Translations under genes and position numbers: made by a program
In this document: positions 49,683 to 59,878 of the stretch, piece after piece
How the letters are laid out: each line of letters begins with the position of its first letter
How positions within the stretch are numbered: position 1 is the first letter of the stretch
Notes under the pieces: generated by a model
Database searches by the model: none
Told to the model about the DNA's origin: nothing
The model's input: only the letters and a program-made list of their open reading frames with translations
Source of the DNA: Heliomicrobium sp.
Lineage (GTDB): Bacteria; Acidobacteriota; Blastocatellia; RBC074
DNA length: 64,000 bases
Assembly (NCBI GenBank): GCA_021155085.1
Contig: JAJNQA010000027.1
Coordinates: forward strand, 30,058 to 94,057
Direction of reading: 5' to 3'

Positions 49683-49711
49683 TTGACGGCCTTCCCGGAC
49701 AGGAGTATAAA
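49683..49711 (+). promoter_or_regulatory. near-consensus sigma70 promoter (-35 TTGACG, 17-bp spacer, -10 TATAAA) in AT-rich leader upstream of tRNA array
   Basis: TTGACG-gccttcccggacaggag-TATAAA. Confidence 0.6.
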
Positions 49712-50095
49712 ACGCGACGGTGAAAGTGAATGAAGTAGCTTTCAGCCAGTTCAAGGTAAAGATCAAATTTTCGGTAATTAATTTTCAAGACACTTTTCAG
49801 GACGCTATGTTGCTCAATGGACACAAAAACTTGATAGCCGCCAACGCGACAACGAAACGTCGCGCCGCCATCTCAGCATGTTGGCAATTTGGCGTCGTGG
49901 TGACCTTGGGAAGCAACCCGAATACGCCATCCAACAATTCGATTGATTCGATGATGCTGCGAGATAAAACCAGACGGGCGGGATCGCCCGAACGTTTAGT
50001 CGGCGGTTATCTCTTTAGTCATCAATGTTAAGCCAGCGGGAGCGGTTTCCCGCTCCCGAAAATTCCAAGTTCAAGTACACCAGGGATTTAAGGTC

Positions 50096-50176: not shown

Positions 50177-50262
50177 GCCGGAGAAGCCCGATGGACGGGC
50201 GGCGGACTGTAAACCCGTTGTGGACGTGTGTCTGCAAGCAGGTTCGATTCCTGCCTCCGGCA
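50177..50262 (+). tRNA. tRNA-Tyr(GTA), type II (19-nt variable arm); non-canonical A8-A9
   Basis: acceptor GCCGGAG/CTCCGGC, loop CTGTAAA, T-arm GCAGG-TTCGATT-CCTGC, disc A; A31-C39 mismatch. Confidence 0.55.
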
Positions 50263-50267
50263 TTTCG

Positions 50268-50339
50268 GGGAGTATGTGGTAACTGGCAACCGGTCGGTCT
50301 CCAAAACCGATATTCCAGGTTCAAATCCTGGTACTCCTG
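50268..50339 (+). tRNA. tRNA-Trp(CCA)
   Basis: anticodon arm TCGGT-CTCCAAA-ACCGA, T-arm CCAGG-TTCAAAT-CCTGG, G1-U72; irregular D-arm. Confidence 0.6.
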
Positions 50340-50358
50340 TCAACGTTTGTAGCTATTT

Positions 50359-50446
50359 AGAGGCGTGGCGGAATTGGCAATCGCACTGGTCCGCTAAACC
50401 AGGGAGCTACTACAGTCTCGTGTGGGTTCGAGTCCCACCGCCTCTG
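50359..50446 (+). tRNA. tRNA-Ser(GCT), type II; C33 in anticodon loop
   Basis: acceptor AGAGGCG/CGCCTCT, CTGGT-CCGCTAA-ACCAG, long variable arm, T-arm GTGGG-TTCGAGT-CCCAC. Confidence 0.6.
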
Positions 50447-50465
50447 TCGAGTTATTTTTAGTTAC

Positions 50466-50550
50466 GGAGGGTTAGCCTAATTGGTAAGGCAGCAGTTTCG
50501 AAAACTGCCGTAGGATTGTACCTTTGAGGGTTCGAGTCCCTCACCCTCCT
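50466..50550 (+). tRNA. tRNA-Ser(CGA), type II; CCA encoded (50551-50553)
   Basis: acceptor GGAGGGT/ACCCTCC, GCAGT-TTCGAAA-ACTGC, T-arm GAGGG-TTCGAGT-CCCTC. Confidence 0.7.
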
Positions 50551-50600
50551 CCATTAAGTTCGGAGGTAATCAGCAACGCAATTAAGTTACAAATAGTTAT

Positions 50601-50684
50601 GGAGGGATGGCCGAATTGGCAAGGCAGTAGTTTTGAAAACTACCGGAGGTAACACTCTTCGGGGTTCGAGTCCCCGTCCCTTCG
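50601..50684 (+). tRNA. tRNA-Ser(TGA), type II
   Basis: acceptor GGAGGGA/TCCCTTC, GTAGT-TTTGAAA-ACTAC, T-arm CGGGG-TTCGAGT-CCCCG. Confidence 0.7.
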
Positions 50685-50715
50685 TCAGGTAGTAGTGTGT
50701 CTTGCAGGTACTTTG

Positions 50716-50791
50716 GCACTGGTAGCTCAGTTGGAATCAGAGCGCGGGCCTCCGAAGCCTGAGGTCGCGAGTTCGAGTCTCGCCCGGTGCA
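50716..50791 (+). tRNA. tRNA-Arg(CCG)
   Basis: acceptor GCACTGG/CCGGTGC, CGGGC-CTCCGAA-GCCTG, T-arm GCGAG-TTCGAGT-CTCGC. Confidence 0.7.
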
Positions 50792-50846
50792 TTTGACGTA
50801 AGTCGAACGTTATTTGAAAAGCCGGAAGTTATATTCAAATTACTTT

Positions 50847-50921
50847 GCGGGTGTGGCGCAAGCTGGTAGACGCGCAGCGCTAAGAACGCTGTTATTGGAG
50901 GTTCAAGTCCTCTCACCCGCA
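50847..50921 (+). tRNA. compact (type I, 75 nt) Leu-like tRNA with anticodon AAG
   Basis: acceptor GCGGGTG/CACCCGC, Leu-type D-arm GCG-CAAGCTGGTAGA-CGC, CAGCG-CTAAGAA-CGCTG, 5-nt variable loop, T-arm GGAGG-TTCAAGT-CCTCT, disc A. Confidence 0.5.
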
Positions 50922-50931
50922 TTTGGCGTTT

Positions 50932-51006
50932 GCAGGCATGGCGCAAATTGGCAGACGCGGCAGTCTCAAAAACTGCATTGTGAAGGTTCGAGTCCTTCTG
51001 CCTGCA
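50932..51006 (+). tRNA. compact (type I, 75 nt) Leu-like tRNA, anticodon CAA
   Basis: acceptor GCAGGCA/TGCCTGC, D-arm GCG-CAAATTGGCAGA-CGC, GCAGT-CTCAAAA-ACTGC, variable ATTGT, T-arm GAAGG-TTCGAGT-CCTTC, disc A. Confidence 0.55.
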
Positions 51007-51022
51007 TTATTGAAAGTTTTTT

Positions 51023-51098
51023 GTGGGTGTGGCGCAATTCAGGTAGACGCACCGGTCTCAGAAGCCGGTTGTTGGAGGTTCAAGTCCTCTCACCCACA
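51023..51098 (+). tRNA. compact (type I, 76 nt) Leu-like tRNA, anticodon CAG
   Basis: acceptor GTGGGTG/CACCCAC, D-arm GCG-CAATTCAGGTAGA-CGC, CCGGT-CTCAGAA-GCCGG, variable TTGTT, disc A. Confidence 0.55.
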
Positions 51099-51108
51099 TC
51101 AGATTTTC

Positions 51109-51181
51109 GTCGGCGTAGCTCAATTGGGAGAGCGCGAGTTTGCCAGGCTCGAGGTCGGGAGTTCAAACCTCCTCGCCGACT
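51109..51181 (+). tRNA. tRNA-Gly(GCC); CCA encoded (51182-51184)
   Basis: acceptor GTCGGCG/CGCCGAC, CGAGT-TTGCCAG-GCTCG, T-arm GGGAG-TTCAAAC-CTCCT, disc T. Confidence 0.7.
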
Positions 51182-51193
51182 CCATATTCTTTT

Positions 51194-51267
51194 GCACGCT
51201 TGGCCGAGTGGATTACAGGCGCAGGGCCGCAGCCCCTGTCAGGGCGGTTCGATTCCGTCAGCGTGCT
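51194..51267 (+). tRNA. Cys-like tRNA (anticodon GCA) with Ser-like D-arm, C33 and G37
   Basis: acceptor GCACGCT/AGCGTGC, disc T, CAGGG-CCGCAGC-CCCTG, T-arm GGCGG-TTCGATT-CCGTC. Confidence 0.45.
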
Positions 51268-51278
51268 TCATTTGATCT

Positions 51279-51354
51279 GCCGAAGTGGCGCAAACAGGCA
51301 GACGCGTGGAGCTTAAACCTCCGTCATTTGAGGGTTCGAGTCCCTCCTTCGGCA
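51279..51354 (+). tRNA. compact (type I, 76 nt) Leu-like tRNA, anticodon TAA
   Basis: acceptor GCCGAAG/CTTCGGC, D-arm GCG-CAAACAGGCAGA-CGC, TGGAG-CTTAAAC-CTCCG, short variable loop, T-arm GAGGG-TTCGAGT-CCCTC, disc A. Confidence 0.55.
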
Positions 51355-51365
51355 TTGTCAGTTTT

Positions 51366-51435
51366 TGCGGGTGGGCAAGTGCTCAGTTAGGTCTCATAAG
51401 CCTCGACTCGCTGGGAGCGTTACCCAGACCCGCAA
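51366..51435 (+). pseudogene. degenerate tRNA-like (CAT anticodon loop CTCATAA; non-canonical T-loop AGCGTTA)
   Basis: acceptor TGCGGGT/ACCCGCA pairs; D/T arms irregular. Confidence 0.3.
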
Positions 51436-51445
51436 TCAAAGTATG

Positions 51446-51521
51446 GGGCGCTGGGCAAGTCCGGTGAAGCCGTCGGTCTTTCAAGCTGAAGATCGTGGAT
51501 TCAAATCCCACACGACGCCCT
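51446..51521 (+). pseudogene. degenerate tRNA-like (TTC anticodon loop; T-stem A53-C61 mismatch and 2-nt insertion before 3' acceptor)
   Basis: GGGCGCTGGGCAAGT 5' end paralogous to 51366 copy; TCGGT-CTTTCAA-GCTGA. Confidence 0.3.
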
Positions 51522-51569
51522 ACTGTGTTTAGTTACATGATGTTACTCGGCAAGTAACTCGAAGTTACT

Positions 51570-51642
51570 GAGTCCGTGGCCTAATTGGCAAGGCAACAGC
51601 CTTTTAAGCTGTAAGATGTGGGTTCGATTCCCACCGGACTCA
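51570..51642 (+). tRNA. tRNA-Lys(TTT)
   Basis: acceptor GAGTCCG/CGGACTC, ACAGC-CTTTTAA-GCTGT, T-arm GTGGG-TTCGATT-CCCAC. Confidence 0.75.
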
Positions 51643-51660
51643 TTCGGATTTTTGAAGTTT

Positions 51661-51752
51661 GCTCCCGTAGCTTAAATGGAGAAAGCGGCGCGAAAATGAC
51701 GTGTCAGCATCGAGGGTCGCTGGAAATCCGGGTTCAAATCCCGGCTGGAGTC
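51661..51752 (+). tRNA. 92-nt tRNA-like gene with about 23-nt extra arm and non-canonical anticodon loop (AAAATGA); paralog of 51774 gene
   Basis: acceptor GCTCCCG/CTGGAGT (one C-U mismatch), D-arm GCTT-AAATGGAGA-AAGC, T-arm CCGGG-TTCAAAT-CCCGG. Confidence 0.35.
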
Positions 51753-51773
51753 TTTGTTTTTGGCTGCTGATTG

Positions 51774-51863
51774 GCTCCTGTAGCTCAACAGGCAGAGCGG
51801 CACGCTTATAACGTGTAAGCACCAGATCGGTGCGTGATCCGGGTTCGAATCCCGGCGGGAGCA
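51774..51863 (+). tRNA. 90-nt Ile-like tRNA, anticodon TAT, with about 22-nt stem-loop variable arm
   Basis: acceptor GCTCCTG/CGGGAGC, D-arm GCTC-AACAGGCA-GAGC, GCACG-CTTATAA-CGTGT, extra arm GCACC-agatc-GGTGC, T-arm CCGGG-TTCGAAT-CCCGG. Confidence 0.45.
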
Positions 51864-51874
51864 TCAGGATTTCT

Positions 51875-51949
51875 GGCGGGTGTAGCTCAGGCAGGCAGAG
51901 CGTCTGGCTGTGAACCAGAAAGCCGCCGGTTCAAATCCGGTCACTCGCC
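51875..51949 (+). tRNA. tRNA-His(GTG) with genome-encoded G-1
   Basis: G-1 + GCGGGTG/CACTCGC, disc C pairs G-1; TCTGG-CTGTGAA-CCAGA; T-arm GCCGG-TTCAAAT-CCGGT. Confidence 0.75.
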
Positions 51950-51967
51950 CTGATTTTTGAAGGTCTT

Positions 51968-52039
51968 TGGGATGTCGTCTAACTGGCAGGACGGTAGTCT
52001 TTGAAGCTATCTGTCGAGGTTCGAATCCTCGCATCCCGG
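51968..52039 (+). tRNA. tRNA-Gln(TTG), U1
   Basis: acceptor TGGGATG/CATCCCG, GTAGT-CTTTGAA-GCTAT, T-arm CGAGG-TTCGAAT-CCTCG. Confidence 0.65.
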
Positions 52040-52043
52040 TTTT

Positions 52044-52116
52044 GCACCTGAAGCTCAGTTGGCAGAGCACGCGGTTGATAACCGCGCGGTCGAAGGTTCG
52101 AGTCCTTCCGGGTGCA
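52044..52116 (+). tRNA. tRNA-Ile(GAT)
   Basis: acceptor GCACCTG/CGGGTGC, CGCGG-TTGATAA-CCGCG, T-arm GAAGG-TTCGAGT-CCTTC. Confidence 0.75.
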
Positions 52117-52126
52117 TCGAATTTGT

Positions 52127-52200
52127 GGGGCGTTGGTGTAGATGGTGAACACGCTCGGCTTTCAATCGAGAGATGGCCGGTTCGAGTCCGGTACGCCCTA
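52127..52200 (+). tRNA. tRNA-Glu(TTC)
   Basis: acceptor GGGGCGT/ACGCCCT, CTCGG-CTTTCAA-TCGAG, T-arm GCCGG-TTCGAGT-CCGGT. Confidence 0.7.
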
Positions 52201-52212
52201 CTCAAGTTTTAT

Positions 52213-52286
52213 GGGATCGTGGGCCAGTTGGAGTGGCTGCAGCCCTGTCAAGGCTGAGATCACGGGTTCGAGTCCCGTCGGTCCCG
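52213..52286 (+). tRNA. tRNA-Asp(GTC)
   Basis: acceptor GGGATCG/CGGTCCC, CAGCC-CTGTCAA-GGCTG, T-arm ACGGG-TTCGAGT-CCCGT. Confidence 0.75.
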
Positions 52287-52302
52287 TTTAGGATTTGAAA
52301 AT

Positions 52303-52375
52303 GGATCGGTAACTCAATGGTCAGAGTGCCTGCCTCTTAAGCAGGAAGTTGTGGGTTCAAGTCCCACCCGATCCA
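52303..52375 (+). tRNA. tRNA-Lys(CTT); CCA encoded (52376-52378)
   Basis: acceptor GGATCGG/CCGATCC, CCTGC-CTCTTAA-GCAGG, T-arm GTGGG-TTCAAGT-CCCAC. Confidence 0.75.
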
Positions 52376-52387
52376 CCAAAAAGTTTT

Positions 52388-52460
52388 TACAGGGTAGCTC
52401 AGTTGGCAGAGCGCCGGTCTGTTAAACCGGTCCGCGCGGGTTCGAGTCCCGCCCCTGTAG
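52388..52460 (+). tRNA. tRNA-Asn(GTT)
   Basis: acceptor TACAGGG/CCCTGTA, CCGGT-CTGTTAA-ACCGG, T-arm GCGGG-TTCGAGT-CCCGC. Confidence 0.75.
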
Positions 52461-52465
52461 CTTTT

Positions 52466-52542
52466 CAGAGTGTAGTTGCGGTTTGCGCAGAGCGCACGGC
52501 CCGGGCCCGTGAGGTCGCTCACTTCGAATCCTGCCACTCTGA
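52466..52542 (+). pseudogene. degenerate tRNA-like (acceptor CAGAGTG/CACTCTG pairs; anticodon hairpin CACGG-CCCGGGC-CCGTG; T-stem does not pair)
   Basis: TTCGAAT T-loop present but flanks unpaired. Confidence 0.3.
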
Positions 52543-52617
52543 TTTTAGCGGCGAATGCTGATGGAACTACATCTTGGAAAATGAACGTTTCATCAAATTT
52601 TTGTCGCCGCTTTTTTC

Positions 52618-52690
52618 GTGAGCGAAGCGCTAATGGCAGCGTGCTGGTCTTCCAAACCGGAGGTAGCGGGTTCGATCCCCGCCGCTCACT
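52618..52690 (+). tRNA. tRNA-Gly(TCC)
   Basis: acceptor GTGAGCG/CGCTCAC, CTGGT-CTTCCAA-ACCGG, T-arm GCGGG-TTCGATC-CCCGC; preceded by 8-bp-stem hairpin + T6 (52551-52616). Confidence 0.75.
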
Positions 52691-52695
52691 TTTTT

Positions 52696-52767
52696 GCTGG
52701 TGTAGCTCAACGGATGAGCCGCCGTCTCGTAAGCGGCAGGATATGGGTTCGAATCCCATCGCCAGCT
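52696..52767 (+). tRNA. tRNA-Thr(CGT)
   Basis: acceptor GCTGGTG/CGCCAGC, GCCGT-CTCGTAA-GCGGC, T-arm ATGGG-TTCGAAT-CCCAT. Confidence 0.7.
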
Positions 52768-52772
52768 TTGAT

Positions 52773-52844
52773 TGGGAGATCGTCTAATTGGCAGGATGGC
52801 AGATTCTGACTCTGTTGATTGTGGTTCGAATCCACATCTCCCAG
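52773..52844 (+). tRNA. tRNA-Gln(CTG), U1
   Basis: acceptor TGGGAGA/TCTCCCA, GCAGA-TTCTGAC-TCTGT, T-arm TGTGG-TTCGAAT-CCACA. Confidence 0.7.
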
Positions 52845-52850
52845 TTTTTT

Positions 52851-52923
52851 AGGAACGTAGCTCAGTGGCTAGAGCATTGGTCTTACAAACCAGAGGCCGT
52901 GGGTTCGAGTCCCACCGTTCCTA
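52851..52923 (+). tRNA. tRNA-Val(TAC)
   Basis: acceptor AGGAACG/CGTTCCT, TTGGT-CTTACAA-ACCAG, T-arm GTGGG-TTCGAGT-CCCAC; followed by 15-bp x2 tandem TTGCCCAATGCTTAT (52926-52955). Confidence 0.75.
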
Positions 52924-52965
52924 TTTTGCCCAATGCTTATTTGCCCAATGCTTATTTGAAAGCCT

Positions 52966-53038
52966 GGGATCGTAGCCAAACTGGAAAGGCGCCAGTCTTG
53001 CAAACTGGAAATTGTGGGTTCGAGCCCCACCGGTTCCA
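52966..53038 (+). tRNA. tRNA-Ala(TGC) with G3-U70 identity pair
   Basis: acceptor GGGATCG/CGGTTCC, CCAGT-CTTGCAA-ACTGG, T-arm GTGGG-TTCGAGC-CCCAC. Confidence 0.75.
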
Positions 53039-53048
53039 TTCTGATTTT

Positions 53049-53120
53049 CTGGGTGTGGGGCAGTGGCTGCCCACTTGCCTTGGGAGCAAGCCGACGCAGG
53101 TTCGAGTCCTGCCACCCAGA
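53049..53120 (+). tRNA. tRNA-Pro(TGG)
   Basis: acceptor CTGGGTG/CACCCAG, CTTGC-CTTGGGA-GCAAG, T-arm GCAGG-TTCGAGT-CCTGC. Confidence 0.75.
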
Positions 53121-53126
53121 CTTTAT

Positions 53127-53203
53127 GTTCGTGTAGCTCAGTGGAAATTTAGAGCGCTGGTCTACGAAACCAGAGGCCGAAGGTTCGAATCCTTCCACGA
53201 ACA
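53127..53203 (+). tRNA. tRNA-Arg(ACG)
   Basis: acceptor GTTCGTG/CACGAAC, CTGGT-CTACGAA-ACCAG, T-arm GAAGG-TTCGAAT-CCTTC. Confidence 0.75.
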
Positions 53204-53211
53204 TCAAATTT

Positions 53212-53283
53212 GGTTGGTTAGCACAACTGGCAGTGCGCTCGGCTGAAGCCCGAACGGACGGGGTTCGAGTCCTCGACCAACCA
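53212..53283 (+). tRNA. tRNA-Phe(GAA)
   Basis: acceptor GGTTGGT/ACCAACC, CTCGG-CTGAAGC-CCGAA, T-arm CGGGG-TTCGAGT-CCTCG; followed by 7-bp-stem hairpin 53290-53318. Confidence 0.7.
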
Positions 53284-53324
53284 TCAAATCAAATCTCCGA
53301 TTTCAAATTGGAGATTCGAGATGG

Positions 53325-53399
53325 GGTGATGTAGCTCAGTGGAATCAGAGCGACTGCCTCCTAAGCAGTAGGCCGTGAGTTCAAATCTCACCATCGCCA
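53325..53399 (+). tRNA. tRNA-Arg(CCT)
   Basis: acceptor GGTGATG/CATCGCC, ACTGC-CTCCTAA-GCAGT, T-arm GTGAG-TTCAAAT-CTCAC. Confidence 0.75.
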
Positions 53400-53407
53400 C
53401 TTCAAAT

Positions 53408-53481
53408 GTCCGCATAGCTCAGTTGGAGGCAGCACCCGCTCGGTACGCGGGAGGACGCCGGTTCGATTCCGGCTGCGGGCT
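53408..53481 (+). tRNA. tRNA-Thr(GGT); apparent C33 and 3-bp D-stem
   Basis: acceptor GTCCGCA/TGCGGGC, CCCGC-TCGGTAC-GCGGG, T-arm GCCGG-TTCGATT-CCGGC. Confidence 0.55.
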
Positions 53482-53497
53482 TAACCTGATAATCTAC

Positions 53498-53573
53498 GGG
53501 TCTGTCGTCTAATTGGAATCAAGGCGTCCGGCTTCTAACCGGGATGATGCAGGTTCGAGTCCTGCCAGGCCCT
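53498..53573 (+). tRNA. tRNA-Arg(TCT)
   Basis: acceptor GGGTCTG/CAGGCCC, TCCGG-CTTCTAA-CCGGG, T-arm GCAGG-TTCGAGT-CCTGC. Confidence 0.7.
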
Positions 53574-53597: not shown

Positions 53598-54155
53598 ATG
53601 GTAATCAGCAGAAAAGTCTTGCTACTCAACGCTTCTTACGAACCGCTCAGTGTGGTGACTGCGCCGAAGGCGTTGACGCTAGTTTTCAGGCACGTGGCCG
53701 AAGTGCTGGAGGCGGATCAAGGACACGTGCTGCGTTCGCCACGGTTTGTTTTCCAGGTGCCGTCGGTGATCCGGTTGACGCAATACATCAATATCCGCTC
53801 GCGGCAAAACCGCGTGGCCAATCGCCATCGGATTCTGGCGCGTGACCATTACCGCTGCCAGTATTGCGGCAAGCGTGGAAGTGCCTTTGAACTGACGCTT
53901 GATCACATCCTACCCAGATCACGTGGCGGTCGAACAGTGGCCGAAAACCTGGTTGCGTCTTGCCAGGCTTGTAACAACCGCAAAGGTGACCGGACGCCGG
54001 AAGAAGCCCGGATGCCTTTGCTGACTAATCCGGCGGCGTTGTTTTATGGATTGGAGCGGGTGGAGTTGCGGCAGGCGGCCGCGAATCGTCCGGAATGGAG
54101 AAAATATCTTTTCCTCGAACACGCGGAAGAGGAACTGGCGGTAATCTCCGCCTGA
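53598..54155 (+). CDS. HNH endonuclease
   Basis: ACGGAG SD; HNH motif DHYRCQYCGKRGSAFELTLDHILPRSRGG...NLVASCQACNNRKGDRT. Confidence 0.8.
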   Translation: MVISRKVLLLNASYEPLSVVTAPKALTLVFRHVAEVLEADQGHVLRSPRFVFQVPSVIRLTQYINIRSRQNRVANRHRILARDHYRCQYCGKRGSAFELTLDHILPRSRGGRTVAENLVASCQACNNRKGDRTPEEARMPLLTNPAALFYGLERVELRQAAANRPEWRKYLFLEHAEEELAVISA

Positions 54156-54315: not shown

Positions 54316-54390
<75 letters not shown>

Positions 54391-54744: not shown

Positions 54745-56751
54745 GTGAGCGAAATACAAAATCAATCCAATCAAGCATCGTCGCAAGCAGCAGGGGCTCA
54801 AGCTGTTGTTGGGGCTTCAGCGCTGGAACTTTTGAAGCAACAGGATCGCGAAAGCGCAAAGAAAGCGCTTGCCGCACGTCTTTTCCGCAATGGTGTTCAG
54901 CAGGAAGAGCCTGTTGATTTGAGCTATCAAATTGGTGAAGGTGAACGGGTGGAACCCGTCACGCCAGAATCGCCTGAAGCTCTGGAAGTTTACCGCCATT
55001 CGACAGCGCATTTGCTGGCGGCGGCGGTTTTGGATCTGTTTCCGGGGGCGAAACTCGGTATTGGGCCGGCGTTACTCGACGATCCAAAGGGCGGGTTCTA
55101 TTACGACTTTGTGCGTGAAGACGGTGGGCGATTCACGCCGGAAGATTTACCGAAGATCGAAAAGAAAATGCGCGATCTGATGAAGCGCAATCTCGAATAT
55201 CGGCGAATTCAGATGCCGAAGGCGGAAGCCGAAAAGAAATTTGCCGAGATGGCCGAGCCGCTCAAGTGCGAGTTGATCAAGGAAAAAGCGGGCGAAATCG
55301 TCAGTTGCTACACGATTGAAGGCACGCCCTTCGTGGATTTTTGTCTGGGGCCGCATATTCCTTCGACGGGCAAGATCAAGGCGATCAAGCTGCTTTCGAT
55401 TGCCGGCGCGCACTGGAAAGGCGACGAAAAGCGCGAGCAGATGCAGCGAATTTACGGCACGTCCTTCTTTTCGCAGGAGGAACTGGACGCCTGGATCAAG
55501 CAAAAGGAAGAGGCCGAAAAGCGTGATCATCGTCGCCTGGGGCAGGAGCTTGATCTGTTCAGCTTCAGCGACGCGATTGGGCCCGGCTTGGTGCTCTGGC
55601 ATCCGAACGGTGCGCTGATTCGCAAAGTCATCGAGCAGTTCCTGAACGACAAGCTTTATCAAAGCGGATACAGCTTCGTGAACACGCCGCACGTCACGCA
55701 GTCGGAGCTTTTCAGAATCTCCGGCCATTTGGAGAACTACCAGGAAGGCCTGTATCCGGCGATGCACACGGGCGACAAGGGCGAAAAGGAAGATGTAGAG
55801 TATCGGATGAAGCCGATGAACTGCCCGTTCCATATCCAGATTTTCAAAGCCCGGCAGCGGTCGTATCGTGACTTGCCGCAGCGTTACGCCGAATACGGGA
55901 TGGTTTACCGCTACGAGCGTTCGGGGGTTACGCACGGGTTGATGCGCGCGCGCGGTTTCACGCAGGACGATGCGCATCTGTTCTGCACACCGGAGCAATT
56001 GGTTCACGAAGTGCTCGGTTGCCTGGAACTGGTGGATTATGTTTTCAAGGCGTTCGGTTTTGAGTACAAGGCCGAATTATCCGTTCGCCACGCAACGGAT
56101 CATGAAAAATATTTGGGTTCGGACGAAGTTTGGACGCTGGCCGAAAAGGCATTGACGGACGCGCTCAACGAATACGGCTTGCCTTACGTTCGAATGGAAG
56201 ATGAAGCCGCGTTTTACGGGCCGAAAATTGACTTCAAGGTCGTGGATGCGATCAAGCGGACCTGGCAGCTTTCGACGATTCAGGTGGATTTCAATTTGCC
56301 GCAGCGGTTCGGCATTGAATATACGGGCGCGGACAACAAACCGCATCAGCCGATTATGGTGCATCGGGCGATTCTGGGTTCGTTCGAGCGGTTCTTTGGG
56401 ATTTTGATTGAGCATTATGCGGGGGCTTTCCCGGTCTGGATGGCGCCGACACAAGCCATCGTGCTGCCGATTTCGGATCGTTTCAATGACAAGGCGATGG
56501 AAGTCGAGCGCGAATTGCAGGCAGCCGGTCATCGCATCCAGGCTGATCTGCGCAGCGAAAAAATCGGCGCGAAGATTCGGGATGCTCAGTTGAAGAAGAT
56601 TCCTTTTATGCTGGTGCTTGGCGAGCGTGAGGCGGAGGCCGGGTTGGTTTCAGTCCGCGACCGCATCAAAGGCGACACCGGCGCGGTTCCAGTGGCGGAA
56701 TTCAGCGCGCGATTGAAAGAGTTCGTCAGCACGCGCGCATTGCAGGCTTAG
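54745..56751 (+). CDS. thrS: threonyl-tRNA synthetase
   Basis: class II aaRS motifs, TGS/N2 editing domain ([12 protein letters not shown]), anticodon-binding C-term. Confidence 0.9.
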
Positions 56752-59210: not shown

Positions 59211-59450
59211 ATGGAACAACAAACACTGACGATTTCGCAGGCTCTTTATCGCAGGCTGGAAACCGAGGCACAGCTTCAAAGCTTGAGTATTGAACAGTTG
59301 ATTGAACAGTGGGAACACCAACTTTCAGAGATCAAGCGACGGCAGGAAGCAGGGCGTGTGATCAAAGAAACTTTCAAGAAAATGAAAGCCAAATACGGAC
59401 TCATGCCGGACAGTGCCGAACTAATTCGCGAGGATCGGGACAGCAGATGA
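59211..59450 (+). CDS. ribbon-helix-helix type II antitoxin (VapB-like)
   Basis: MEQQTLTISQALYRRLETEAQLQSLSIEQLIEQ RHH pattern; ATGA overlap with PIN gene. Confidence 0.55.
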   Translation: MEQQTLTISQALYRRLETEAQLQSLSIEQLIEQWEHQLSEIKRRQEAGRVIKETFKKMKAKYGLMPDSAELIREDRDSR

Positions 59451-59878
59451 CAAATCTGGTGATAGACAGTGGCGTTGCGGTGAAATGGTTTGTGAACGAG
59501 CCAAACTCCGCGGAAGCTGAACGCATTTTCGATGAGTATCTGGCCAGCGAGATTTTCTTATTGGCTCCGGACTTTATCTATGCTGAGTTCGGCAACATCA
59601 TCTGGAAAAAGCAGACGCTTCAGGGATTCAATCCTACAGACGCGGCCAAGGTTATTGATGACTTTCGCACGCGGGTCACAATTGCTCTGACTTCAACGGC
59701 AGATCTGCTTGAAGATGCCTACCAATTGGCTGTCACTCACAGGCGAACCGTTTACGACATGCTTTACCTGGCCTTGAGTCTTCGCGAAGGCTGCCAATTC
59801 GTTACCGCCGATGATCGTCTGGTGAACGCAATCGGCAGTCAATTCCCAAACATCGTTCGATTGGCCGATTGGCCGTAA
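59447..59878 (+). CDS. PIN-domain toxin (VapC-like)
   Basis: MTNLVIDSGVAVKWF...PIN acidic residues; start overlaps antitoxin stop. Confidence 0.7.
   Translation: MTNLVIDSGVAVKWFVNEPNSAEAERIFDEYLASEIFLLAPDFIYAEFGNIIWKKQTLQGFNPTDAAKVIDDFRTRVTIALTSTADLLEDAYQLAVTHRRTVYDMLYLALSLREGCQFVTADDRLVNAIGSQFPNIVRLADWP

What the first reader, a model, noticed from the sequence alone, without database searches (positions are those of the whole stretch)
50847..51354. Four compact 75-76-nt Leu-anticodon tRNAs lacking the long variable arm
The genes at 50847, 50932, 51023 and 51279 share a Leu-type D-arm (GCG-CAAnnnGGnAGA-CGC), discriminator A73 and Leu anticodons (AAG, CAA, CAG, TAA). Only 4-6 nt lie between the anticodon stem and the T-stem. 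Bacterial tRNA-Leu are universally type II with a long extra arm, so these are either a new compact isoacceptor class, decoys, or non-functional. Together the four anticodons would decode all six Leu codons.
Basis: partly seen in the sequence, partly recalled or inferred. Interest (0 to 1): 0.8.

Follow-up and report, generated by a model that had tools for sequence, protein, structure and literature searches.

The report
Short-armed leucine tRNAs in mobile array
The four leucine tRNA genes really do lack the long extra arm, but they are conserved members of a horizontally spread tRNA gene array of a kind also common in phages, so they are a neglected known kind rather than a one-off oddity.

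Summary
Four 75-76-nt tRNA genes with Leu anticodons AAG, CAA, CAG and UAA sit at the stated coordinates. Each has a 5-6-nt variable loop, A73 and a Leu-type D-arm.

They belong to a 33-gene, same-strand tRNA array (50177-53573). An HNH endonuclease gene follows it, and the block lies upstream of tRNA-Val(GAC)-thrS-infC-pheST in an uncultured Acidobacteriota (Blastocatellia-like) chromosome.

- **Spread:** Syntenic or related arrays with the same compact Leu genes occur in MAGs labelled as five phyla. They also occur in the studied Anabaena PCC 7120 trn operon, on Mycobacterium avium and Variovorax plasmids, and in at least 120 viral contigs and two cultured phages.
- **Conservation:** Among 187 non-redundant compact Leu genes, A73 is invariant, A15:U48 is in 183, and the G18G19-YAGA D-loop on a 3-bp stem is in 174.
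- **Selection:** 19 of 20 stem pairs show compensatory changes.
- **Origin:** Without anticodon and variable region, they score best as type II tRNA-Leu.
- **Contrast:** Ser and Tyr tRNAs in the same loci keep long arms.

Most likely they are functional leucine acceptors derived by arm loss, which bacterial LeuRS tolerates. Charging is inferred, not shown. A bacterial precedent exists in Streptomyces coelicolor tRNA-Leu(CAA), so "universally type II" is wrong.

The parts
50847..50921 (+). tRNA-Leu(AAG), 75 nt, type I (variable loop TTATT), A73, A37
   Evidence: ARAGORN; Rfam tRNA 54.0 bits; parse. It is 87-96% identical to orthologues in L020, L003, L014, L004 and L007. Best isotype profile is type II Leu, 59.8 bits against 45.2 for the next.
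50932..51006 (+). tRNA-Leu(CAA), 75 nt, type I (variable loop ATTGT), A73
   Evidence: (55.6 bits). Orthologues are 85-97% identical. Type II Leu profile 60.1 bits against 54.5 for the next.
51023..51098 (+). tRNA-Leu(CAG), 76 nt, type I (variable loop TTGTT), A73, A37
   Evidence: (56.5 bits). Orthologues are 91-96% identical. Type II Leu profile 63.3 bits against 48.1 for the next.
51279..51354 (+). tRNA-Leu(UAA), 76 nt, type I (variable loop TCATTT), A73
   Evidence: (47.7 bits). Orthologues are 84-93% identical. Type II Leu profile 50.7 bits against 32.6 for the next.
50177..53573 (+). Long tRNA gene array (L-array / tRNA array unit): 33 same-strand tRNA genes in 3.4 kb, with no tRNA-Met; Tyr and three Ser are type II
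   Evidence: ARAGORN; Rfam. Syntenic arrays are in L001, L003, L004, L007, L010, L013, L014 and L020. tRNA columns are 69-86% identical against 41-66% for spacers.
53598..54155 (+). HNH endonuclease gene attached to the array
   Evidence: Pfam HNH_5/HNH. It is 38% identical (E 2e-32) to the HNH gene beside the Anabaena trn operon. Homologues lie beside or within arrays on M. avium pS2b and a Variovorax plasmid.
54316..54387 (+). tRNA-Val(GAC), probably the resident chromosomal gene upstream of thrS that marks the right border of the inserted block
   Evidence: ARAGORN; Rfam 69.9 bits. The same array-HNH-Val(GAC) layout is in L003 and L014.
54745..56751 (+). thrS (threonyl-tRNA synthetase), housekeeping flank showing the array is chromosomal
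   Evidence: Pfam tRNA_SAD, tRNA-synt_2b and HGTP_anticodon. infC, rpmI, rplT, pheS and pheT follow. L014 is 80% identical through this flank.
51774..51863 (+). Array member with the opposite peculiarity: a UAU-anticodon, Ile-like tRNA carrying a 22-nt variable arm
   Evidence: ARAGORN; Rfam 63.0 bits. It recurs in other arrays and viral contigs with covarying arm stems.

Best explanation
The four genes are genuine, selectively maintained type I (short variable loop) leucine tRNA genes. They are members of a long tRNA gene array (L-array / tRNA array unit) with an attached HNH endonuclease gene. This is a mobile module related to phage tRNA clusters. Here it is fixed in the chromosome of an uncultured Acidobacteriota (Blastocatellia-like) bacterium, just upstream of tRNA-Val(GAC)-thrS.

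They descend from ordinary type II tRNA-Leu by loss of the extra arm. C13 largely replaces G/A/U13. They keep the elements bacterial LeuRS is known to use: A73, A14, the A15:U48 Levitt pair, and G18G19 and A20a in a Leu-type D-loop on a 3-bp D stem. LeuRS reads neither the anticodon nor, in E. coli, the extra arm. The arm can therefore be lost in Leu, but not in Ser or Tyr, whose synthetases use it.

The inferred mechanism has three steps.
1. The array is transcribed as an operon and processed.
2. The host LeuRS leucylates the compact species.
3. They act as extra UUR/CUN decoders when the array is expressed, for instance when the housekeeping tRNA pool is damaged or depleted.

**Shown here:** the gene structure, conservation, covariation, identity nucleotides, descent from type II Leu, and distribution.

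**Inferred:** expression, leucylation and physiological role. These rest on published Anabaena data and LeuRS identity rules.
For: **Structure.** ARAGORN and Rfam both call compact tRNAs well above threshold. The parse is and folding finds no extra arm.

**Array context.** There are 33 tRNAs in 3.4 kb followed by an HNH gene. That HNH is homologous to the one beside the Anabaena trn operon and to those beside mycobacterial and Variovorax arrays.

**Recurrence.**
- A strict compact-Leu pattern found 20 loci in species-representative genomes, all inside tRNA arrays. The MAGs are labelled Acidobacteriota, Chloroflexota, Bacillota, Cyanobacteriota and Betaproteobacteria.
- Cultured phages M5.1 and Ci1 carry annotated 77-nt and 75-nt tRNA-Leu genes.
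- The Anabaena trn operon carries Leu CAA, UAG and UAA with 5-6-nt variable loops, plus a GAG copy with a broken T stem.

**Selection.**
- On 61 sequences, 99.3% of stem cells pair and 19 of 20 pairs have double changes. The covariation score is 0.856, against 0.217 when shuffled and at most 0.202 when slid.
- Against five orthologous arrays, tRNA columns are 69-86% identical while spacers are 41-66%. The Leu genes themselves are 84-97% identical wherever an orthologue aligned.

**Identity set in 187 non-redundant compact Leu genes.**
- A73 in 187.
- A14A15 in 180.
- U48 in 186.
- A15:U48 in 183.
- G18G19 followed by 4 nt and a 3-bp stem in 174.

The 69 genes that do not match my search pattern still have A73 in 69 and U48 in 68.

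**Descent.**
- The nearest non-compact neighbour is a type II Leu for 121 of 187, although type II Leu make up only 44 of 1185 comparators.
- A type II Leu profile built without anticodon and variable region is the top isotype for all four window genes and for 158 of 187.

**Specificity to Leu.** Ser and Tyr in the same loci keep arms of 11-23 nt.

**Literature.**
- E. coli leucine identity is A73, A15-U48, G18G19 and A20a. Arm sequence and folding do not correlate with leucylation, and variants without the arm stay active (PMC9976931).
- In Anabaena, 23 of 26 trn-operon tRNAs are detected and aminoacylated in vivo, and all operonic tRNAs tested by RT-PCR were found in the polysomal fraction (PMC8421152). 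The operon has four Leu-anticodon genes and at most three pseudogenes. At least one compact Leu is therefore charged in vivo.
- ScoLeuRS leucylates a type I tRNA-Leu (PMC6614811).
Against: - No expression or charging data exist for this organism.
- E. coli LeuRS and S. purpurogeneiscleroticus LeuRS did not charge the S. coelicolor type I tRNA-Leu(CAA) (PMC6614811). Tolerance of a short loop is therefore not universal among bacterial LeuRS.
- The CUN readers here (AAG, CAG) have A37, not the G37 (m1G37) usual for bacterial CUN-reading tRNA-Leu. This could impair frame maintenance.
- The alpha region of the D-loop is 3-4 nt here, against 2 nt in E. coli tRNA-Leu, and the placement of G18G19 matters for E. 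coli LeuRS.
- Two other slots of this array hold decayed tRNA remnants. Selection on individual members can therefore lapse.
- No sigma-70-like promoter was found by the simple scan.
- The statistics carry selection bias. My pattern fixed part of the D-arm, and my parser required near-complete stems.
Confidence: 0.7

Rival explanations
1. Decoy or sponge tRNAs. The compact species are made but serve mainly to absorb tRNA-targeting toxins or nucleases, or other tRNA-binding factors, rather than to deliver leucine to the ribosome.
For: - The authors of the Anabaena study raise sponge and non-canonical roles for operonic tRNAs (PMC8421152).
- Arrays are discussed as anti-defence elements in mycobacteria (PMC12803027) and in phages (PMC10264068).
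- A37 replaces G37 in 64 of 105 compact CUN readers.
- A PIN-domain toxin gene lies 6 kb downstream in the window.
Against: A decoy would not need an invariant A73, the A15:U48 pair, intact 7-bp acceptor and T arms, and a complete set of distinct Leu anticodons preserved across phyla. Operonic tRNAs in Anabaena are charged, and all those tested by RT-PCR were found in polysomes.
Confidence: 0.12
2. Housekeeping set. In this Blastocatellia-like lineage the array is not supernumerary. It supplies the cell's main tRNA-Leu, so the lineage translates Leu codons with type I tRNAs, as S. coelicolor does for UUG.
For: - The array sits at the same chromosomal place, with the same flanking genes, in MAGs only 65-80% identical at the DNA level. 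This implies long vertical retention.
- The tRNA genes are under purifying selection.
- There is a precedent of an essential type I tRNA-Leu(CAA) in S. coelicolor.
Against: - The array has no tRNA-Met or fMet and no Leu(UAG), so other tRNA genes must exist elsewhere.
- Two array slots have decayed, which suggests redundancy.
- Only about eleven Acidobacteriota species representatives matched, all of them MAGs.
- Published L-arrays are supernumerary (PMC8421152; PMC12803027).
Confidence: 0.1
3. Decaying pseudogenes. These would be relics of a transferred array that lost the extra arm by deletion and no longer function.
For: - Some neighbours in this array are clearly degenerate (51366-51520, ~52470-52546).
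- Arrays were described as cryptic and poorly transcribed in earlier work.
- The Anabaena Leu(GAG) copy has a broken T stem.
Against: - 19 of 20 pairs show compensatory change and 99.3% of stem cells pair.
- The Leu genes are 84-97% identical where spacers are 41-66%.
- The same architecture is kept in five phyla and in phages.
- A73 is invariant in 187 of 187.
Confidence: 0.03
4. Recoding. The compact tRNAs read Leu codons but are charged with a different amino acid.
For: - Loss of the class II arm removes one feature that normally marks tRNA-Leu.
- Aberrant acid-gel mobility of some operonic tRNAs (Phe, Ile) was seen in Anabaena.
Against: - No G3:U70 (AlaRS) is present in the four genes.
- SerRS needs the long arm.
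- The other synthetases read anticodons, and these are Leu anticodons.
- The body scores as Leu.
- No mistranslation was detected in Anabaena at the UUC codons that were tested.
Confidence: 0.03

Closest known systems
trn operon (L-array) of Anabaena/Nostoc sp. PCC 7120 plasmid delta (Puerto-Galan & Vioque 2012; Santamaria-Gomez et al. 2021, PMC8421152)
   Same: - It is a long same-strand tRNA array with a homologous HNH endonuclease gene (38% identity).
- It has four Leu-anticodon genes of 74-78 nt with A73 and an A15:U48-type body.
- Its Tyr and one Ser remain type II.
   Different: - It is plasmid-borne, not chromosomal.
- Gene order differs, and so does the Leu anticodon set (CAA, UAG, GAG, UAA against AAG, CAA, CAG, UAA).
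- It includes tRNA-Met.
- It is experimentally shown to be stress-induced and charged.
- The papers I could read never mention the missing arm of its tRNA-Leu.
Streptomyces coelicolor type I tRNA-Leu(CAA) (Fan et al. 2019, PMC6614811)
   Same: It is a bacterial tRNA with a Leu anticodon and a 5-nt variable loop. It coexists with type II tRNA-Leu, and a single LeuRS leucylates both.
   Different: - It is a single housekeeping, apparently essential gene, not an array member.
- In that system A73 is not an identity element, whereas A73 is invariant here.
- Its sequence relation to this family was not tested. It did not match my strict pattern.
tRNA array units of Mycobacterium and Acidithiobacillus (Tran et al. 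2016, PMC4758250; Morgado & Vicente 2018, PMC5966550; Yano et al. 2026, PMC12803027)
   Same: - They have 20 or more tRNA genes at 2 or more per kb, sit on mobile elements, and embed an HNH endonuclease.
- Their tRNAs are redundant with chromosomal ones.
- M. avium pS2b carries a compact Leu(UAA) of 76 nt.
   Different: - The M. avium and Variovorax arrays mix one compact Leu with one type II Leu. The window array has only compact ones.
- The Acidithiobacillus arrays could not be examined here.
Phage tRNA clusters (e.g. Pseudomonas phage M5.1, Citrobacter phage Ci1; IMG/VR contigs)
   Same: They carry compact tRNA-Leu with the same GCGCAA...GGYAGACGC D-arm, a 5-nt loop ending in U48, and A73, next to type II Ser and Tyr.
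   Different: - They lie in virus genomes interspersed with small ORFs.
- Many phage clusters also keep type II Leu. In an unselected D-arm scan, 61 of 63 non-redundant Leu genes were type II.
Animal mitochondrial tRNA-Leu and engineered minimalist E. coli tRNA-Leu (Larkin et al. 2002, cited in PMC9976931)
   Same: They are leucine acceptors without the long arm, and A73 is retained.
   Different: - Mitochondrial species have degenerate elbows and a dedicated LeuRS.
- Minimalist RNAs are artificial.
- The present genes have canonical D/T loops and are natural bacterial and phage genes.

Membership tests
tRNA array unit / L-array | At least 20 tRNA genes at a density of at least 2 per kb, on the same strand with short spacers (Tran et al. 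2016) | tested here: met
   33 tRNA genes lie in 50177-53573 (3.4 kb, about 9.7 per kb), all on the + strand.
tRNA array unit / L-array | Associated HNH endonuclease gene (reported for mycobacterial arrays; present beside the Anabaena operon) | tested here: met
   ORF 53598-54155 hits HNH_5/HNH. It is 38% identical to the Anabaena array-linked HNH, and homologues lie beside arrays on pS2b and a Variovorax plasmid.
tRNA array unit / L-array | Patchy, cross-phylum distribution indicating horizontal spread | tested here: met
   Related arrays occur in MAGs labelled as five phyla and on plasmids. Within Acidobacteriota, however, the locus is syntenic and looks vertically inherited.
tRNA array unit / L-array | Supernumerary: array tRNAs duplicate a complete housekeeping set elsewhere in the genome | not testable with these tools
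Indirect hints are the absence of tRNA-Met in the array and two decayed slots.
Type I (class I) tRNA | Variable region of 4-5 nt without a stem | tested here: met
   The variable loops are 5, 5, 5 and 6 nt. No extra helix appears in MFE folds. The Rfam tRNA model matches end to end.
Canonical bacterial tRNA-Leu (type II) | Long variable arm of 10 nt or more | tested here: not met
   By contrast, the Tyr and Ser genes of the same array have arms of 16-19 nt.
Bacterial leucine identity set (E. coli rules, PMC9976931) | Discriminator A73 | tested here: met
   A73 is present in all four genes and in 187 of 187 non-redundant compact Leu genes.
Bacterial leucine identity set (E. coli rules, PMC9976931) | [quoted passage not shown] | tested here: met
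   All four genes have U8, A14, A15, a variable loop ending in U, and GGYAGA before a 3-bp D stem. Family-wide, 183 of 187 have A15:U48 and 174 of 187 have the D-loop layout. One caveat: the alpha region is 3-4 nt here against 2 nt in E. coli.
Bacterial leucine identity set (E. coli rules, PMC9976931) | Actual leucylation by LeuRS | not testable with these tools
   Support is indirect only. 23 of 26 Anabaena operonic tRNAs are charged in vivo. A counter-example is that EcLeuRS does not charge the S. coelicolor type I tRNA-Leu.
Bacterial CUN-reading tRNA-Leu | G37 (m1G37 by TrmD) 3' of the anticodon (established knowledge) | tested here: not met
   The anticodon loops are CTAAGAA and CTCAGAA, so position 37 is A in both CUN readers. 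A37 is found in 64 of 105 compact CUN readers.

The most novel reading that the evidence does not exclude
Loss of the extra arm is not neutral streamlining. It is an adaptive hallmark of mobile tRNA sets. Phages and array-bearing elements would carry arm-less, C13-type tRNA-Leu, often with A37, because these escape host factors that recognise the class II architecture or the anticodon loop of resident tRNA-Leu. Such factors include toxin or defence nucleases and nucleotidyltransferases. LeuRS would still charge them, so Leu decoding continues while the host pool is being destroyed.

A second reading that my evidence does not exclude is that this Blastocatellia lineage uses these type I species as its main tRNA-Leu.
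Probability: 0.15. Interest if true: 0.75.

Novelty: new member of a known kind. Interest (0 to 1): 0.45.

Why it matters
Textbooks and current reviews treat the long variable arm as a defining feature of bacterial tRNA-Leu. The only discussed bacterial exception I found is one Streptomyces gene.

This window, and the loci it led to, show that arm-less tRNA-Leu with an intact leucine identity set is a recurrent, selected feature of mobile tRNA arrays and phage tRNA clusters across at least five phyla. Ser and Tyr in the same elements keep their arms.

- **Biology:** It gives a natural test of which tRNA features LeuRS, EF-Tu, modification enzymes and tRNA-targeting toxins really need.
- **Comparison material:** It offers a ready-made panel of sequences, with 187 non-redundant compact genes and 44 type II genes from the same loci.
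- **Annotation:** Isotype models that expect the arm will score such genes poorly.
- **Engineering:** These scaffolds are candidates for compact Leu or suppressor tRNAs.

For this particular window the finding is an ordinary member of that class.

Tried and rejected
- **Whole-array BLAST.** A blastn of the whole array against plasmids and phages gave only single-tRNA matches and no close relative. A blastn of the Leu block against phages mostly hit unrelated tRNA-Trp genes.
- **Initial guess.** I first suspected Acidithiobacillus ICEAfe1, from the GC content and my memory of a 36-tRNA array. No evidence emerged for it. The flanks match Acidobacteriota/Blastocatellia MAGs instead.
- **Promoter scan.** It found no sigma-70-like site. 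By eye, a TTGACG-17-TATAAA lies at about 49693-49722, unverified.
- **Integration repeats.** A direct-repeat search returned only tRNA paralogy.
- **Papers.** Alamos et al. 2018 on ICEAfe1 tRNAs is not held. The supplements of the Anabaena paper are not held either. I therefore could not learn which three operonic genes are its pseudogenes.
- **Unbiased frequency in viruses.** A scan with a general Leu D-arm pattern was dominated by type II genes and by truncated host tRNA-Leu fragments that look like prophage attachment sites. It shows that both kinds are common and that C13 marks the compact kind, but it gives no reliable frequency.
- **Source genome.** The only exact-protein matches are unnamed metagenome assemblies.
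- **ORF upstream of the array.** ORF 49720-50031 has no Pfam match.
Full report
**1. The observation**

ARAGORN finds 34 tRNA genes in the window. All are on the + strand. 33 are packed into 50177-53573 and one more, Val(GAC), lies at 54316-54387. Rfam's tRNA covariance model confirms them.

| Gene | Coordinates | Rfam bits (gathering 29) | Variable loop |
|---|---|---|---|
| Leu(AAG) | 50847-50921 | 54.0 | TTATT |
| Leu(CAA) | 50932-51006 | 55.6 | ATTGT |
| Leu(CAG) | 51023-51098 | 56.5 | TTGTT |
| Leu(UAA) | 51279-51354 | 47.7 | TCATTT |

An explicit cloverleaf parse gives the following for each gene:
- a 7-bp acceptor stem, then U8 and G9;
- a 3-bp D stem GCG/CGC enclosing C13-A14-A15-(3-4 nt)-G18G19-Y-A-G-A;
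- 5-bp anticodon and T stems;
- a variable loop of 5-6 nt;
- A73.

MFE folding shows acceptor, anticodon and T arms and no additional helix. The composite pattern occurs four times in the window and never in shuffles. In the same array, Tyr and the three Ser genes have 16-19-nt variable arms. The shortness is therefore specific to Leu and is not an artefact of the gene finder.

**2. Context**

The array is chromosomal.
- Upstream lie a Ser/Thr kinase with PD40 repeats, an S15 peptidase and an amino-acid permease.
- Downstream lie an HNH endonuclease gene (53598-54155), tRNA-Val(GAC), thrS, infC, rpmI, rplT and pheS.
- A small ORF plus a PIN-domain ORF follow, and then pheT.

The only exact-protein matches are unnamed metagenome assemblies.

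A strict DNA pattern for a compact Leu (fixed D-arm, 24-29 nt to the T-loop) was scanned against one genome per prokaryotic species. It returned 20 loci, every one inside a tRNA array. The records are all MAGs except one genome record (Floridaenema evergladense BLCC-F167). The labels are:
- Acidobacteriota, mostly Blastocatellia and Pyrinomonadaceae;
- Chloroflexota (Caldilineaceae, Promineifilaceae);
- Heliobacteria-type Bacillota;
- Cyanobacteriota (Phormidium, Floridaenema);
- a betaproteobacterium.

Several Acidobacteriota loci share the window's gene order: Tyr-Trp-Ser-Ser-(Ser)-Arg-Leu-Leu-Leu-Gly-Cys-Leu-...-Lys-Ile-Ile-His-Gln-... They also share its flanks.
- L003 and L014 align at about 80% through the peptidase or thrS flanks.
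- L001 and L004 align at 65-72% through the permease.
- L020 is 92-93% identical over the array.

The window therefore comes from a Blastocatellia-like acidobacterium in which the array has been retained at one chromosomal site for a long time.

**3. The array belongs to a known kind**

It meets the published definition of a tRNA array unit (20 or more genes at 2 or more per kb; PMC4758250). It also fits the L-arrays of Santamaria-Gomez et al. (PMC8421152).

The attached HNH endonuclease is 38% identical (E 2e-32) to the one beside the Anabaena PCC 7120 trn operon. Its homologues lie next to or within arrays on M. avium pS2b and a Variovorax plasmid. An embedded HNH gene is a conserved feature of M. 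avium arrays (PMC12803027).

**4. Compact tRNA-Leu recurs in such elements**

- The Anabaena trn operon carries Leu CAA, UAG and UAA with 5-6-nt variable loops, plus a GAG copy with a broken T stem.
- M. avium pS2b and the Variovorax plasmid each carry one compact Leu(UAA) and one type II Leu.
In those contigs 169 parsed Leu genes are compact and 60 are type II, while Ser and Tyr are almost always type II.
- Two cultured, annotated phages carry such genes as 'tRNA-Leu': Pseudomonas phage M5.1 (77 nt as annotated, including the encoded CCA) and the T4-like Citrobacter phage Ci1 (75 nt).

A scan with a D-arm pattern that does not fix position 13 returned mostly type II genes and truncated tRNA-Leu fragments that look like prophage attachment sites. 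Among 63 non-redundant Leu genes, 61 were type II and 1 compact. Compact Leu is thus a distinct, common family in phages but not the majority form. It is marked by C13, which is present in 161 of 187 compact genes, in 45 of the 69 outside my pattern, and in 2 of 44 type II genes.

**5. Are they functional genes?**

On 61 sequences from the window, the genome loci and Anabaena:
- 99.3% of stem positions form standard pairs;
- 19 of 20 pairs show changes on both sides;
- the covariation score is 0.856, against 0.217 in shuffles and at most 0.202 when partners are slid.

Against five orthologous arrays, tRNA columns are 69-86% identical while spacers are 41-66%. The four Leu genes are 84-97% identical wherever an orthologue aligned.

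Caveats apply. The set mixes paralogues. My parser demanded nearly complete stems. Relatedness inflates shuffle tests. The compensatory changes and the gene-versus-spacer contrast do not depend on those choices.

**6. What amino acid?**

Among 187 non-redundant compact Leu genes:
- A73 is invariant;
- A14A15 is in 180;
- the last variable nucleotide is U in 186;
- A15:U48 is in 183;
- G18G19 followed by four nucleotides (mostly YAGA) and a 3-bp D stem is in 174.

The 44 type II Leu genes of the same loci show the same signature. The 69 compact genes that do not match my search pattern still have A73 in 69 and U48 in 68.

These are the elements listed for E. coli leucine identity: A73, A15-U48, G18G19 and A20a. 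Arm sequence and folding are reported not to correlate with leucylation, and arm-less variants stay active (PMC9976931).

I compared the genes with the anticodon and variable region removed.
- The nearest non-compact neighbour is a type II Leu for 121 of 187, although type II Leu make up only 44 of 1185 comparators.
- In a simple per-isotype profile test, the type II Leu profile wins for all four window genes and for 158 of 187. The scores were 59.8, 60.1, 63.3 and 50.7 bits, against 45.2, 54.5, 48.1 and 32.6 for the runner-up.

None of the four has G3:U70, and SerRS needs the arm. LeuRS is thus the only plausible synthetase.

Published Anabaena work detected 23 of the 26 operonic tRNAs and found them aminoacylated in vivo. 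All operonic tRNAs tested by RT-PCR were also found in the polysomal fraction. With four Leu-anticodon genes and at most three pseudogenes, at least one compact Leu is charged in vivo. Probably three are, since the GAG copy and a 71-nt 'Ser' look defective. The paper never mentions Leu or the arm.

**7. Mechanism proposed**

The extra arm was lost from type II tRNA-Leu genes in mobile and phage tRNA sets. Bacterial LeuRS, unlike SerRS and TyrRS, does not use the arm. C13 and a class I-like loop (often G46, always U48) rebuild the core. The array is transcribed as an operon, and the compact tRNAs are leucylated and supplement decoding of UUR and CUN codons. By analogy with Anabaena, this would matter under translational stress or attack on the tRNA pool.

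Structure, conservation, identity nucleotides and descent are shown here. Expression, charging and role are inferred.

Points against:
- E. coli LeuRS and one Streptomyces LeuRS fail to charge the S. coelicolor type I tRNA-Leu.
- The two CUN readers here have A37 rather than the usual G37.
- The D-loop alpha region is one or two nucleotides longer than in E. coli.
- Two other slots of this array have decayed.

**8. Rivals**

The rival readings are a decoy or sponge role, a housekeeping (non-supernumerary) role, pseudogenes, and recoding. They are weighed in the structured fields. None is favoured, and the first two cannot be excluded without experiments or a whole-genome tRNA census.

**9. Novelty**

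The premise 'universally type II' is wrong. S. coelicolor tRNA-Leu(CAA) is type I and has been studied in detail.

L-arrays are known, and compact tRNA-Leu genes are already deposited and annotated in phage and plasmid records. In the array, phage-tRNA and identity papers I could search, I found no statement that array or phage tRNA-Leu lacks the arm. That library is incomplete. Alamos 2018 and Puerto-Galan 2012 were not available.

I therefore file the window's genes as a new member of a known kind. The generalisation, arm-less Leu as a hallmark of mobile tRNA sets, is a modestly interesting and apparently under-described pattern.

Noticed in passing
window 51774-51863 (+); homologues in L001, L003, L004, L007, L014, L016, L020 and viral L034, L063, L070, L075, L104, L126: This is the mirror-image oddity: an Ile-like tRNA with anticodon UAU and A73 that carries a 22-nt variable arm (AAGCACCAGATCGGTGCGTGAT). 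In 13 non-redundant homologues the arm stem covaries (GCACC/GGTGC, GCGC/GCGC, CCCC/GGGG, CAA/TTG). Every hairpin loop holds a centred GAU, usually CAGAUY, which is the triplet of the tRNA-Ile(GAU) anticodon. One idea is an anticodon-mimic hairpin that lets IleRS accept a U34 AUA-decoder without TilS. This is untested.
   Followed up: partly
window 51661-51752 (+); L020 1612-1703, L003 2639-2729, L004 4323-4413, L007 5639-5731: A 92-nt tRNA-like gene is called Ile(AAU). Its anticodon loop is AAAATGA (A at position 33 instead of U), it has a long variable arm (CAGCATCGAGGGTCGCTGGAAAT), and its discriminator is C73. ARAGORN calls the orthologues with 4-nt anticodons. It is conserved across arrays, and its function is unclear.
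   Followed up: no
window 51366-51520 and about 52470-52546: These are decayed tRNA remnants inside the array. One is a Glu(UUC)-like sequence with a disrupted acceptor/T junction (Rfam partial hit 51452-51511, 34.6 bits). One is a piece with only acceptor-like ends. One is a T-arm/3' remnant in the slot that holds Pro(CGG) in L003 and L004. Together they suggest some array members are dispensable.
   Followed up: partly
window 53598-54155 (+): This HNH endonuclease gene at the end of the array is homologous to those beside the Anabaena trn operon and to those beside or within the M. avium and Variovorax arrays. It is a candidate homing or mobility factor for the whole module.
   Followed up: partly
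window 50880-50886 and 51057-51063 (anticodon loops); family-wide: CUN-reading compact Leu tRNAs often have A37 instead of G37. This holds for 64 of 105 non-redundant genes and for both window CUN readers. They would therefore lack m1G37, which normally guards the reading frame in bacterial CUN-reading tRNA-Leu.
   Followed up: partly
viral loci, e.g. L032 (next to a 75-nt Leu(UAA)); also L027, L046, L050, L127: ARAGORN labels several genes 'Pyl(cta)'. The L032 copy has a compact-Leu-like body, up to 74% core identity to the window Leu genes. It may be a leucine-inserting amber suppressor in a phage. The other copies were not examined individually.
   Followed up: no
window 59211-59878 (+): A 79-aa ORF and a 143-aa PIN-domain ORF (a VapBC-like toxin-antitoxin pair) are wedged between pheS and pheT. 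PIN/VapC toxins commonly cleave tRNAs, which is notable beside a tRNA array.
   Followed up: partly
L020 (CAZMXG010000222.1), also L013 and L016: Contigs binned as Heliomicrobium/Heliobacteriaceae MAGs carry arrays. The L020 array is 92-93% identical to the window's acidobacterial array. This is either mis-binning in co-assemblies or very recent inter-phylum transfer.
   Followed up: no
window 50177-53573: The array encodes no tRNA-Met, initiator tRNA or lysidine-type tRNA-Ile(CAU). It does carry a tRNA-Leu with A34 (AAG). The orthologous gene in sister arrays has GAG, so the wobble base toggles between G and A.
   Followed up: partly
L002 3370-3739 and L005 254-1019: Some arrays hold type II and compact Leu genes side by side. 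In L002 these are UAA at 83 nt and CAA at 85 nt beside GAG at 76 nt and UAG at 74 nt. The bodies are related, which gives possible snapshots of the arm-loss transition.
   Followed up: no
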